Assembly (NCBI GenBank): GCA_001821395.1 | Contig: MHLM01000011.1 | Span: forward strand, 1 to 17,815 | From: Candidatus Lloydbacteria bacterium RIFCSPHIGHO2_02_FULL_50_18 | GTDB lineage: Bacteria > Patescibacteriota > Minisyncoccia > Phycocordibacterales > UBA6899 | Direction of reading: 5' to 3' | Length of the DNA: 17,815 nt | Shown: positions 1,251 to 1,754 of the stretch, piece by piece | Layout: each line of letters opens with the position of its first letter | Position numbering within the stretch: the first letter of the stretch is position 1 | Translations under genes and position numbers: made by a program | The notes under the pieces: generated by a model | What the model was told of the DNA's origin: nothing | Database searches by the model: none | What the model saw: only the letters and a program-made list of their open reading frames with translations

Positions 1251-1605
1251 GGAACCCAGAAAATCAAAATTTTTGAGCATGTTGCTTGAAAGTAGAGATT
1301 TTCCAAGCCACACAAACTTTTCGGGAAGTATGTGGCGGGTTCGAAAAAAATCAACACGCAACAAATGTATTTTGTTTGGTCGCGTTGTTCGATGATCACA
1401 CCTTTTGATAGTTTTCTTTCAAATTTCGCGTACTTCAAATTTTTCTTCATCGAAAGGTTTGGAGGACATACGATGAGTATGCCCTCGCAAACACTTCCGA
1501 CTTGAAAAATTCGAATTACATCGAAATTAAAAAGAAAACAGTGCAATCCTGAAAAACATTTGTGAACTTCATTGAGGAAATTTCCTCAGTTTGAGTTTTC
1601 ATCGT

Positions 1606-1677
1606 CGAGCTGTGGCCGAGCGGCAAGCACCGTACCCTCGAGGTCCGGCTACGCTGGTTCGACTCCAGTCAGCTCGA
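1606..1677 (+). ncRNA. tRNA-like element (degenerate or atypical tRNA) in the 23S-5S spacer
   Basis: A canonical T-arm is present: GCTGG / TTCGACT / CCAGT with G53-C61 and T54 through A58. It sits at the tip of a perfect 13-bp stem (1600-1612 paired with 1670-1682). The D-arm and anticodon arm do not fold canonically. The best anticodon stem has one mismatch and C at position 33. Confidence 0.3.
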
Positions 1678-1754
1678 CGATGAGAATTGTTTTCAAAGGC
1701 AAACCACGGTTTGCCTCTTCAATGAAGTTCATAAATAAAAAAACATAATGTATT

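What the first reader, a model, noticed from the sequence alone, without database searches (positions are those of the whole stretch)
1251..1754. An oversized 23S-5S spacer holds a tRNA-like element closed by a perfect 13-bp stem and framed by 13-bp inverted repeats
The 23S-5S spacer here is about 500 bp, against roughly 50 to 250 bp in most bacteria. Inside it, 1563-1575 (TGAACTTCATTGA) and 1719-1731 (TCAATGAAGTTCA) are perfect inverted repeats. Within them a perfect 13-bp stem (1600-1612 with 1670-1682) encloses a 57-nt core carrying a textbook T-arm (G53-C61, TTCGACT loop). The D and anticodon arms are non-canonical. A 14-bp perfect palindrome GAGGAAATTTCCTC (1574-1587) and a hairpin GGCAAACC-ACG-GGTTTGCC (1698-1716) sit at the two borders. 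This could be a degenerate tRNA, a processing (RNase III-type) helix for an excised spacer RNA, or a MITE-like insertion into the rRNA operon.
Basis: seen in the sequence. Interest (0 to 1): 0.5.

Follow-up and report, generated by a model that had tools for sequence, protein, structure and literature searches.

The report
Non-decoding tRNA-like element before 5S
The long gap between the 23S and 5S rRNA genes of this tiny groundwater bacterium (Parcubacteria) holds a worn-down tRNA that can no longer read codons but keeps its tRNA shape inside a conserved RNA hairpin, most likely as a cutting signal for trimming the ribosomal RNA precursor.

Summary
The 23S-5S spacer is 506 nt, and 1558-1736 folds into a very stable hairpin (z = -8.7) with a tRNA-like core at 1606-1677 (ARAGORN; Rfam tRNA 34.3 bits, cut-off 29).

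The organism is a Parcubacteria/Lloydbacteria-type CPR bacterium. Eight related spacers show that the outer inverted repeat is a conserved RNA helix at a fixed site about 25 nt before 5S. It has 7 compensatory pairs in 5 species, and every mismatch is a G·U on the rRNA strand.

The cargo of that helix varies:
- a canonical tRNA-Glu(UUC) in one relative;
- degenerate tRNA-likes with a CUCGA/CUCGU loop here and in two others;
- non-tRNA inserts in two;
- a 38-nt stub in one;
- nothing in two.

The "perfect 13-bp stem" is the clade's normal tRNA flank. In 20 of 23 tRNA or tRNA-like genes the leader pairs with the trailer over 9-17 bp; in E. coli the figure is 0-2 bp.

The element is neither a working tRNA-Arg nor a supported MITE. 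Best reading: a non-decoding spacer tRNA relic, still shaped for RNase P/Z and double-strand nucleases, that punctuates the pre-rRNA. Function is inferred, not shown, and the element is dispensable in some relatives.

The parts
1..1255 (+). 3' part of the 23S rRNA gene (context), interrupted by a group I intron at 493-869
   Evidence: Rfam RF02541, 712 bits, model positions 2036-2925. A 380-nt insertion is seen in the model alignment, and RF00028 scores 41 bits, E = 1.2e-08.
1243..1266 (+). Trailer strand of the 23S leader-trailer (processing) helix
   Evidence: The invariant sequence (C/A)TTTATTGGGAACCCAGAAAATCA pairs over about 23 bp with the sequence just 5' of 23S in L017 and L008. It is invariant in all relatives. 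Assignment in the window is by homology, because the 23S 5' flank lies outside the window.
1403..1546 (+). Long A+T-rich hairpin ('module A') of the spacer
   Evidence: Inverted repeats I1 and I4. Homologous hairpins occur in the spacer of L008, L010, L016 and L032, and after 5S in L033, L030 and L032. The termini are conserved and the interior is replaceable.
1558..1578 (+). 5' arm of the conserved outer 'frame' helix
   Evidence: I3. Covariation over 5 species: 97.1% of cells paired, 7 pairs with changes on both sides, slid controls 0-1.
1573..1588 (+). Palindrome TGAGGAAATTTCCTCA: a local hairpin that competes with the top of the frame helix
   Evidence: I14. By my reading of the sequences, an equivalent local hairpin (TGAGGA-type segment pairing with a nearby TCCTCA/TCTTCA) can be drawn in L012, L013, L017 and L019.
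1594..1605 (+). 5' leader strand of the inner leader-trailer helix, which continues the acceptor stem
   Evidence: 12 consecutive pairs (G·U included) with 1677-1688, starting with position -1 paired to the discriminator (-13.5 kcal/mol, z = -4.7).
1606..1677 (+). tRNA-like core. Acceptor 1606-1612/1670-1676; D region 1615-1629; anticodon arm 1630-1648 with CUCGA loop 1637-1641; T arm 1653-1669; discriminator A1677
   Evidence: ARAGORN. Rfam tRNA 34.3 bits. In the hand-curated stem set (2 extension pairs, the four cloverleaf stems and the 3' hairpin) 27 of 29 pairs form.
1677..1688 (+). 3' trailer strand of the inner leader-trailer helix; no CCA is encoded
1697..1716 (+). Small 3' hairpin (AGGCAAACC / GGUUUGCCU) inside the frame
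   Evidence: I11. It is present with compensatory changes in L012, L013 and L017.
1716..1736 (+). 3' arm of the outer frame helix
1743..1761 (+). 5' strand of the 5S leader-trailer helix; it pairs with 1874-1891
   Evidence: Inverted repeat I2: 1743-1771 / 1863-1891, 29 nt, 76% complementary.
1762..1873 (+). 5S rRNA gene (context)
   Evidence: Rfam RF00001, 75.6 bits.
1904..1926 (+). Hairpin with a T-run just after 5S, read as the operon terminator
   Evidence: The stem AACCACCAATAATATCGGTGGTT followed by TTTTTG is seen in the sequence. The scan lists the same hairpin on the minus strand. No tRNA or tRNA-like gene follows 5S in this species.

Best explanation
What it is. 1558-1736 is a spacer-tRNA module of a Parcubacteria (Lloydbacteria-type) rRNA operon whose tRNA has lost decoding ability. 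It is transcribed as part of the 23S-5S precursor. The 21-bp outer helix (1558-1578 / 1716-1736) and the inner 19-bp helix fold the region into one long hairpin with a tRNA-shaped tip. The inner helix is the 7-bp acceptor stem plus a 12-bp pairing of leader with trailer.

What is kept and what is lost. The parts that tRNA-processing enzymes recognise are intact: the acceptor-T minihelix, the T loop UUCGA and the D-loop GG. The parts needed for translation are not: the anticodon arm is 19 nt with a CUCGA pentaloop and no U33, and the D stem is weak.

Inferred mechanism.
1. A double-strand-specific endonuclease (RNase III type) and/or helix opening acts on the leader-trailer helices.
2. RNase P cuts at 1605/1606.
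3. A 3' endonuclease of the RNase Z type cuts after A1677.

This would excise the tRNA-like RNA and sever pre-23S from pre-5S. The pre-5S would keep only a short 5' extension that lies in its own leader-trailer helix (1743-1761 / 1874-1891).

Shown: the anatomy, conservation of the site, covariation of the helices, and the tRNA-Glu at the same site in a relative. Inferred: transcription as one precursor, every cleavage, and any benefit to the cell.
For: 1. The structure is real and far beyond chance. It is identical in four independent assemblies.

2. The same site holds the same frame helix in L012, L013, L017 and L019, with a stub in L010. The site lies directly after the invariant AATCCTGAA and about 25 nt before 5S. 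The frame has 7 of 21 pairs with changes on both sides among only 5 species, and 97.1% of cells are paired. Slid controls give 0-1 such pairs, and 1 of 500 shuffles reaches the observed number of such pairs. Inside the helix every departure from Watson-Crick is a G·U or U·G on the + strand; only the terminal pair is unpaired, in three species. That points to function as RNA in the rRNA sense.

3. In L017 the frame holds a canonical tRNA-Glu(UUC) (ARAGORN call; 63.5 bits). In L012 (29.6 bits) and L013 it holds Glu-type tRNA-likes with a CUCGA or CUCGU loop.

4. The curated stems (2 extension pairs, the four cloverleaf stems and the 3' hairpin) stay paired: 29/29, 28/29, 27/29 and 27/29 pairs. 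Many pair types differ between species. RNAalifold finds 16 compensated pairs.

5. The window core keeps the acceptor, the T arm and the GG/UUCGA elbow, but scores only 34.3 bits. Eleven genes that ARAGORN names with an ordinary amino acid in the clade loci score 49.5-69 bits.

6. Leader-trailer pairing of 9-17 bp that continues the acceptor stem occurs in 20 of 23 distinct tRNA or tRNA-like genes of the clade. In 12 E. coli tRNAs it is 0-2 bp.

7. Ten related species (including the window) were examined. Nine have at least one tRNA-shaped gene with a non-canonical anticodon arm next to 5S, before or after it.

8. No promoter-like site was found in the spacer.

9. Published context:
- Leader-3'-end pairing that extends the acceptor stem inhibits bacterial RNase P (PMC9433436).
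- rRNA leader-trailer helices are RNase III substrates (PMC11404451).
- tRNAs between 23S and 5S have been noted in some CPR genomes, and many CPR RNase P RNAs lack the CCA-binding motif (PMC8172020).
Against: The module is dispensable. L008 and L015/L018 have nothing at the site, L010 keeps only a 38-nt stub, and L008 has no tRNA-like on either side of 5S.

The tRNA-like ends 84 nt before the 5S 5' end and begins about 350 nt after the 23S 3' end. Its excision therefore cannot create a mature rRNA end directly.

The minimum-free-energy fold of the window core is not a cloverleaf.

No closer relative with this exact variant was found, so selection on the window's own copy is inferred from sister lineages. 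Perfect stems could also mean a recent origin.

There are no expression or end-mapping data, and no RNase genes of this organism were examined.
Confidence: 0.55

Rival explanations
1. Neutral relic. The element is simply a decaying pseudogene of a former spacer tRNA, still sitting in its old flank helices. It has no present role. It is transcribed and degraded with the rest of the spacer.
For: Complete or partial loss in L008, L015/L018 and L010 without any visible replacement. The D and anticodon arms are degenerate and the tRNA-model scores are low. The cargo of the frame is replaceable: non-tRNA inserts occur in L019 and L032.
Against: The stems are kept through many two-sided changes in lineages that have already lost decoding. 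L012 and L013 differ by 3 double changes against 1 disruptive change in stems. The elbow nucleotides and the acceptor-T minihelix are intact in all four versions. An apical CUCGA/CUCGU/UCGA motif is shared by copies at different positions (window, L012, L013, L032, L033). Nine of the ten species examined keep a non-decoding tRNA-shaped gene next to 5S.
Confidence: 0.25
2. Stand-alone tRNA-like small RNA. The excised ~72-nt RNA is itself the product. It would be a tRNA-Glu-derived, non-decoding RNA with a conserved CUCGA apical loop that acts in trans, for example as a protein ligand or through loop-loop pairing. The rRNA operon would only provide strong transcription.
For: The apical motif is conserved across copies that otherwise diverge and that sit on either side of 5S. 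Each copy carries the full processing flanks of a real tRNA gene.
Against: L013 has CUCGU. The after-5S tRNA-likes of L010, L013, L015, L017, L019 and L030 have quite different anticodon arms. L008 has no such gene near 5S. No partner or target is known.
Confidence: 0.12
3. MITE-like mobile insertion. 1558-1736 is a small non-autonomous element with terminal inverted repeats that inserted into the spacer.
For: Presence/absence among relatives. 21-nt terminal inverted repeats. AAAAAC is present on both sides in the window. An IS200-type Y1 transposase gene lies 12 kb away (13620-14294).
Against: The position is the same in every species that has the element. The arms show compensatory changes and strand-specific G·U pairs, which is typical of an RNA helix and not of transposase binding sites. 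No direct repeat flanks the element in L012, L013 or L017. The arm motifs occur only at this site in 231 kb of clade DNA, and nowhere else in the window. The L010 stub looks like an internal deletion.
Confidence: 0.05
4. Working tRNA-Arg(UCG), as ARAGORN labels it, co-transcribed with the rRNAs.
For: ARAGORN call. Rfam score above the gathering threshold. Good acceptor and T arms. Discriminator A.
Against: With a 7-nt loop, position 33 is C rather than the near-universal U. The stem carries a U·C mismatch, and the arm is 2 nt too long in the model alignment. The D stem has a C·A. The score is 34.3 bits, against 49.5-69 bits for eleven genes that ARAGORN names with an ordinary amino acid in the clade loci. 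No relative has a tRNA-Arg at this site. The homologous copies have 5-nt loops or long arms that cannot decode.
Confidence: 0.03

Closest known systems
Spacer tRNA genes of bacterial rRNA operons (for example tRNA-Glu gltT between 16S and 23S in E. coli rrnB)
   Same: A tRNA gene is embedded in the transcribed spacer of an rRNA operon and released by tRNA-processing enzymes, which helps to cut the precursor. The relative L017 has a canonical tRNA-Glu(UUC) at the orthologous site. E. coli rrnB carries tRNA-Glu in a spacer.
   Different: Here the spacer is 23S-5S, not 16S-23S. That arrangement has been noted only in passing for some CPR genomes (PMC8172020). The tRNA in the window no longer decodes. 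It sits at the tip of about 40 bp of leader-trailer helices, which E. coli tRNAs lack.
tRNA-like structure upstream of 5S rRNA in Haloferax volcanii, cut by tRNase Z (Holzle et al. 2008, as cited in PMC3296008)
   Same: A non-decoding tRNA-shaped element lies in the precursor just 5' of 5S and serves as a handle for a tRNA-processing endonuclease.
   Different: The Haloferax element is archaeal and abuts 5S, so the tRNase Z cut makes the mature 5S 5' end. Here 84 nt and a separate 5S leader-trailer helix lie between the element and 5S. Cleavage is untested, and the element is missing in some relatives.
tRNA punctuation and t-elements of mitochondrial transcripts (for example PMC1920247), and dicistronic tRNA-5S genes of Yarrowia (PMC2566860)
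   Same: tRNAs or tRNA-like structures mark the cutting sites in polycistronic precursors. In Yarrowia a tRNA is directly upstream of 5S on one transcript.
   Different: These are different domains or organelles and different polymerases. In those systems the elements directly define mature ends. None is enclosed in long leader-trailer helices.
Leader-trailer helices of 16S and 23S rRNA precursors, which are RNase III substrates (PMC11404451, PMC10250234)
   Same: Long helices are formed by the sequences flanking a stable RNA. They are conserved by covariation and not by sequence alone. The window's own 23S trailer strand (1243-1266) is of this kind.
   Different: In this clade the same design is applied to individual tRNA genes (9-17 bp beyond the acceptor stem) and to this spacer module. 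I did not find that described in the papers searched.

Membership tests
Canonical decoding bacterial tRNA | 7-bp acceptor stem, and a 5-bp T stem with a T-loop of the UUCRANY type | tested here: met
   1606-1612/1670-1676 form 7 Watson-Crick pairs. The T arm is GCUGG-UUCGACU-CCAGU, with one G·U.
Canonical decoding bacterial tRNA | 5-bp anticodon stem with a 7-nt loop carrying U33 and a purine at 37 | tested here: not met
   The arm is 19 nt: a 7-bp stem with a U·C mismatch and a CUCGA pentaloop. If it is forced into a 7-nt loop, position 33 is C.
Canonical decoding bacterial tRNA | D stem of 3-4 pairs | tested here: not met
   G-C and C-G, then C·A and G·A in the Rfam alignment. The MFE fold does not form it.
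Canonical decoding bacterial tRNA | A covariance-model score in the range of the organism's real tRNAs | tested here: not met
   34.3 bits, against 49.5-69 bits for tRNA-Ile, Cys, Gly, Met, Val and Glu in clade loci.
Canonical decoding bacterial tRNA | The same isoacceptor conserved at the site in relatives | tested here: not met
   Relatives have tRNA-Glu, Glu-like non-decoders, other cargo or nothing.
MITE / small mobile element | Terminal inverted repeats | tested here: met
   21-nt arms, 90% complementary. They behave as an RNA helix.
MITE / small mobile element | Target-site duplication | tested here: inconclusive
   AAAAAC lies on both sides in the window only, in an A-rich context. There is none in L012, L013 or L017.
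MITE / small mobile element | Several dispersed copies in the genome | tested here: inconclusive
   One site per rRNA operon in 231 kb of clade loci, and no second copy in the 17.8-kb window. The whole genome of this species was not available.
rRNA-precursor processing helix (RNase III type) | A long helix (about 20 bp or more) formed by sequences flanking a stable RNA in the precursor | tested here: met
   Outer helix of 21 bp. Inner continuous helix of 19 bp: 7-bp acceptor plus 12-bp leader-trailer pairing.
rRNA-precursor processing helix (RNase III type) | Pairing conserved by covariation among relatives | tested here: met
   7 pairs with two-sided changes, 97.1% of cells paired, controls near zero. 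RNAalifold agrees.
rRNA-precursor processing helix (RNase III type) | Staggered double-strand cleavage by RNase III | not testable with these tools
   Needs end mapping or an in vitro assay.
tRNA-like processing signals (Haloferax pre-5S element, mitochondrial t-elements) | Acceptor-T minihelix and elbow kept, no functional anticodon | tested here: met
   GG in the D loop and UUCGA in the T loop are present in all four framed versions (alignment).
tRNA-like processing signals (Haloferax pre-5S element, mitochondrial t-elements) | The element abuts the mature end of the neighbouring RNA, so that the RNase P or Z cut creates that end | tested here: not met
   A1677 is 84 nt from the 5S 5' end (1762). 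C1606 is 350 nt from the 23S 3' end (1255).
tRNA-like processing signals (Haloferax pre-5S element, mitochondrial t-elements) | Cleavage by RNase P and/or RNase Z | not testable with these tools
   No transcript data and no enzymology.

The most novel reading that the evidence does not exclude
In this Lloydbacteria-type Parcubacteria clade, tRNA maturation and 5S rRNA release run through a helix-guided pathway not described for bacteria.

Three observations would belong together:
- Essentially every tRNA gene is transcribed inside a 9-17-bp leader-trailer helix that continues the acceptor stem and encodes no CCA.
- 5S rRNA genes are bracketed by dedicated tRNA-shaped genes that have given up decoding. 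Some derive from tRNA-Glu and keep a CUCGA apical loop.
- The window's element is one of these dedicated punctuation or handle RNAs, kept by selection and not by inertia.
Probability: 0.3. Interest if true: 0.7.

Novelty: new variant of a known kind. Interest (0 to 1): 0.5.

Why it matters
Little is known about how CPR bacteria, with tiny genomes, unlinked rRNA genes, intron-filled rRNAs and divergent RNase P RNAs, mature their stable RNAs.

This locus is a concrete, testable case. It is a 23S-5S spacer in which a tRNA has been converted into a non-decoding, tRNA-shaped module inside conserved helices. It sits within a clade where all tRNA genes carry long leader-trailer helices. In E. coli, pairing of that kind inhibits RNase P (PMC9433436).

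If the elements are maintained as processing handles, this would be a bacterial counterpart of the archaeal pre-5S tRNA-like element and of mitochondrial tRNA punctuation. It would also imply a double-strand-cleavage step upstream of RNase P in these organisms.

There is a practical point for annotation. Such elements are reported as tRNA-Arg, tRNA-SeC or 'tRNA-???' by gene finders, which distorts the tRNA inventories of CPR genomes.

Tried and rejected
1. Reaching closer relatives through NrdR homologues. P0001/L007 ends 110 nt upstream of 5S. I read its 5S as chimeric, because its 5' part is foreign and the helix I strands are not complementary in the alignment. It was discarded. P0002 (L024, L025) and P0011 (L030) end inside 5S. 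P0004, P0005, P0013 and P0014 have no rRNA operon directly beside nrdR. L032 and L033 nevertheless reach an rRNA operon about 2.5-4 kb further on.

2. The single scans of genome contigs and metagenome contigs used a 23S-end anchor. They gave 3 and 9 loci. L021 and L023 are unrelated chance hits, L016 is too short, and L020 and L022 repeat L010.

3. Origin of the window core. Global alignment to all clade tRNAs put tRNA-Cys first (50 of 72 identical). With flanks included, the best match is the after-5S Glu-like module of L032/L033. I do not regard the parent tRNA as settled.

4. MicroRNA-family hits on 1403-1546 are generic long-hairpin matches far below their thresholds. They were rejected.

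5. The 109-aa ORF at 1217-1546 (minus strand) lies across conserved RNA structure. It was rejected as a gene.

6. L032 and L033 turned out to be nearly identical over the whole region. They could not be used to measure purifying selection on the tRNA-like.

7. The literature searches found no description of leader-trailer helices around bacterial tRNA genes or of tRNA-like elements beside bacterial 5S. Absence from this library is not proof of novelty.
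Full report

Yes. Rfam places the end of 23S at 1255 and 5S at 1762-1873, so the spacer is 506 nt.

- outer arms 1558-1578 / 1716-1736, 21 nt, 90% complementary, including the perfect 13-mers;
- inner arms 1596-1612 / 1670-1686, 17 nt, 94% complementary, including the perfect 13 bp;
- the palindrome at 1573-1588;
- the hairpin at 1697-1716.

The region 1550-1745 folds at -84.9 kcal/mol, against -47.1 +/- 4.4 for shuffles (z = -8.7). 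ARAGORN calls a tRNA at 1606-1678 and labels it Arg(tcg). Rfam's tRNA model gives 34.3 bits, just over its cut-off of 29. The spacer is 100% identical in four independent assemblies from different samples.

**2. Organism and setting**

The flanking genes are nrdR, an AAA_28/CYTH protein, a VWA protein, ftsW/rodA, lnt, glycosyltransferases, glyA and folD. Together with the NrdR homologues they point to Parcubacteria (CPR). The named relative is "Parcubacteria group bacterium GW2011_GWA2_47_7". One related contig is titled Candidatus Lloydbacteria.

In two relatives where the DNA upstream of 23S is available (L017, L008), no 16S gene lies within 1.5-5 kb. The operon is therefore 23S-5S only. Unlinked 16S genes were reported for many CPR genomes in PMC8172020.

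**3. What relatives have at this site**

The gene order nrdR-5S-23S is kept in several relatives. A 23S-end anchor fetched more, and L032 added another.

The first about 300 nt of the spacer are conserved. Directly after the invariant AATCCTGAA, the following is found:
- Window, L012, L013, L017 and L019: the same pair of inverted arms (consensus TTTGTGAACTTCATTGAGGA ... TCTTCAATGAAGTTCATAAA).
- L010: a 38-nt hairpin made of the outermost part of the arms.
- L032: a weak hairpin with an unrelated insert.
- L008 and L015/L018: nothing (CCTGAA|ATAATG).

The cargo inside the arms differs:
- L017: a canonical tRNA-Glu(UUC) (ARAGORN; 63.5 bits).
- L012 (29.6 bits) and L013 (not listed): Glu-type tRNA-likes with a bulged T stem and a CUCGA or CUCGU loop.
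- L019: about 200 nt of non-tRNA sequence, followed outside the frame by another tRNA-like with a 5-nt loop.
- Window: the element under study.

**4. The helices are RNA helices under selection**

For the outer "frame", five species give 97.1% of cells paired. Seven of 21 pairs have changes on both sides. Slid controls give 0-1 such pairs, and at most 1 of 500 shuffles reaches the observed values on four of the five measures.

Inside the helix, every non-Watson-Crick pair is G·U or U·G as read on the + strand. On the other strand these would be A·C mismatches. Only the terminal pair is unpaired, in three species. The helix therefore works in the rRNA-sense transcript.

RNAalifold on the four tRNA-bearing modules recovers the frame, the acceptor stem with a 2-bp extension, and the 3' hairpin. 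Sixteen pairs are compensated. In a hand-curated register, 29/29, 28/29, 27/29 and 27/29 pairs form in L017, L012, L013 and the window; the set comprises 2 extension pairs, the four cloverleaf stems and the 3' hairpin. L012 and L013 have both already lost a normal anticodon loop. They differ in stems by three double changes, one wobble and one disruption.

**5. Why the window element is not a working tRNA**

What it keeps:
- a perfect 7-bp acceptor stem;
- a good T arm with UUCGACU;
- GG in the D loop.

What it has lost:
- The D stem has only two good pairs.
- The anticodon arm is 2 nt too long in the Rfam alignment.
- That arm folds as a 7-bp stem with a U·C mismatch and a CUCGA pentaloop (1637-1641).
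- Forced into a 7-nt loop, it has C at position 33.

Its 34.3 bits compare with 49.5-69 bits for eleven genes that ARAGORN names with an ordinary amino acid in clade loci. The "Arg" label only reflects where ARAGORN put the anticodon.

**6. The 13-bp stem is the clade's normal tRNA flank**

I took every distinct ARAGORN call in the loci held. In 20 of 23, the 5' leader pairs with the 3' trailer. The pairing starts with position -1 against the discriminator and runs for 9-17 bp. No CCA is encoded in these flanks, although several tRNA-Cys genes do carry CCA. Examples:
- tRNA-Ile of L008: 17 bp;
- tRNA-Gly: 11-13 bp;
- the window element: 12 bp.

Duplex energies have z from -2.6 to -7.9 in 19 of the 20, and -1.6 for the tRNA-Met of L017. 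Twelve E. coli tRNAs analysed in the same way give 0-2 bp and z near 0.

The flanks share a loose consensus (aGTTTyCtTTGw | tRNA | wCAAaGrGAATT). The window's flanks (AGTTTTCATCGT | ... | ACGATGAGAATT) fit it.

**7. A family of non-decoding tRNA-shaped genes next to 5S**

The first gene after 5S in L010, L013, L015, L017, L019 and L030 is tRNA-shaped, at 39.3-57 bits. It has conserved acceptor, D and T arms, but its anticodon arm ranges from 15 to about 31 nt, with 6-, 8- or 10-nt loops.

L032 and L033 have, after 5S, a Glu-type tRNA-like (36-37 bits). Its long anticodon arm is tipped by CAC-UCGA-GUG.

With flanks included, the window's inner module (1589-1694) aligns best with these L032/L033 modules. 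The shared segments are the leader TTTGAGyTTTC, the acceptor GAGCTGT, the CTCGAG motif and the trailer GAGAATTnGTTTT. Without flanks, the core is closest to the clade's tRNA-Cys. Its parentage is therefore not settled.

Of the ten species examined, nine have at least one such gene beside 5S. L008 has none.

**8. Anatomy of the whole spacer**

- 1243-1266: the trailer strand of the 23S leader-trailer helix. It makes a perfect pairing of about 23 bp with the 23S 5' flank in L017 and L008.
- 1268-1400: conserved small hairpins.
- 1403-1546: a long A+T-rich hairpin ("module A"). In other species it lies either in the spacer or after 5S.
- 1558-1736: the framed tRNA-like module.
- 1743-1761 with 1874-1891: the 5S leader-trailer helix.
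- 1904-1926: the terminator.

No promoter-like site was found in the spacer.

**9. Most likely mechanism**

I read the module as a former spacer tRNA that has been kept, or not yet lost, as a processing module. The precursor folds it into a long hairpin. A double-strand nuclease and/or unwinding gives access. RNase P and a 3' endonuclease then cut at the tRNA-like's ends. This separates pre-23S from pre-5S.

Two published points fit this reading:
- Acceptor-stem extension by leader pairing inhibits bacterial RNase P (PMC9433436), so a preceding helix-cleavage step is plausible.
- Many CPR RNase P RNAs lack the CCA-binding motif (PMC8172020). That fits flanks that mostly encode no CCA.

All cleavage steps are inference.

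Against an essential role: the module is lost in three lineages, and it does not abut a mature rRNA end.

The rivals are a neutral relic (0.25), a stand-alone tRNA-like small RNA (0.12), a MITE (0.05) and a working tRNA-Arg (0.03).

**10. Comparison with known systems, and novelty**

The module works like spacer tRNAs of rRNA operons. It also resembles tRNA-like processing signals such as:
- the Haloferax pre-5S element cut by tRNase Z (cited in PMC3296008);
- mitochondrial t-elements (PMC1920247);
- Yarrowia tRNA-5S dicistrons (PMC2566860).

It fails one defining feature of those signals, direct adjacency to the mature end. It also fails several defining features of a decoding tRNA.

tRNAs between 23S and 5S in CPR genomes were mentioned in PMC8172020. 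The following were not found in the literature searched:
- the degenerate, framed form;
- the clade-wide leader-trailer helices around tRNA genes;
- the tRNA-shaped genes bracketing 5S.

I class the finding as a new variant of a known kind. Interest is moderate.

**11. Limits**

- All sequences are metagenome contigs.
- Only ten related species were available, and none carries the window's exact variant.
- No whole genome of the species was available.
- There are no RNA data.
- The register of the degenerate arms was curated by hand.

Noticed in passing
window 493-869: A 377-nt ORF-less group I intron interrupts 23S. The 5' exon ends ...GGCACCU and the 3' exon starts CGAUGUCGG. The intron ends in G. 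Rfam RF00028 gives 41 bits, E = 1.2e-08, below the cut-off of 50. From memory of E. coli numbering the junction is U2500/C2501, in the peptidyl-transferase region. Relatives L008, L012 and L017 carry group I introns at other 23S positions.
   Followed up: partly
L001 11800-12279 and 13750-14220 (same species as the window by its flanks): Another assembly of the same organism is 100% identical from 5S through 11.5 kb of genes. Its 23S differs: it has two LAGLIDADG ORFs, and the window's bases 1-492 match at only 91%. Either 23S intron content differs between co-existing populations, or the rRNA part of one contig is chimeric.
   Followed up: no
L008 1020-1094; L013 1943-2016; L031, L033 and other clade loci: Nearly all tRNA genes of the clade have a leader and a trailer that pair for 9-17 bp directly beyond the acceptor stem. 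No CCA is encoded in these flanks, although several tRNA-Cys genes do carry CCA. The flanks share a loose consensus. Twelve E. coli tRNAs show 0-2 bp. I did not find this described in the papers searched.
   Followed up: partly
L010 6559-6632; L013 650-722; L015 1237-1322; L017 5745-5819; L019 4803-4888; L030 10624-10702; L032 10696-10781; L033 9273-9358: The first gene after 5S in these relatives is tRNA-shaped, with conserved acceptor, D and T arms. Its anticodon arm is hypervariable and non-decoding (6-, 8- or 10-nt loops, or long arms). ARAGORN reports most of them as 'tRNA-???', and the L019 copies as tRNA-Asp or tRNA-SeC.
   Followed up: partly
window 1403-1546; L033 9376-9502; L032 11202-11328 and 10800-10905: The long A+T-rich hairpin ('module A') has conserved termini (TTTTCTTyCAAATTTCG ... 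CGAAATTwrAAAGAAAA). It lies in the 23S-5S spacer in some species and after 5S in others. Between the otherwise ~97% identical L032 and L033, its interior is completely replaced. Of everything in the spacer, it is the more repeat-like or mobile-looking piece.
   Followed up: partly
window 1573-1588: The top of the frame's 5' arm (UGAGGA) can instead pair with the nearby UCCUCA to make a local hairpin. By my reading of the sequences, an equivalent alternative hairpin exists in L012, L013, L017 and L019. It could be a co-transcriptional folding intermediate or a switch. The terminator scan also lists it as terminator-like.
   Followed up: no
L007 10300-10521: The contig with the closest NrdR (97%) has a 5S whose 5' two-thirds are foreign. 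Its helix I strands are not complementary, and a short, different 23S end precedes it. This is my reading of that alignment. It looks like a chimeric join within 5S and was not used.
   Followed up: yes
window 13620-14294: An IS200-type Y1 transposase ORF (Pfam PF01797, 64.5 bits) lies in a local G+C dip (0.40). A homologue is in L030. No inverted repeat related to the spacer hairpins was seen around it.
   Followed up: partly
window 1217-1546 (minus strand): A 109-aa ORF lies wholly within the conserved structured spacer. It is almost certainly not a gene, though gene callers may report it.
   Followed up: no
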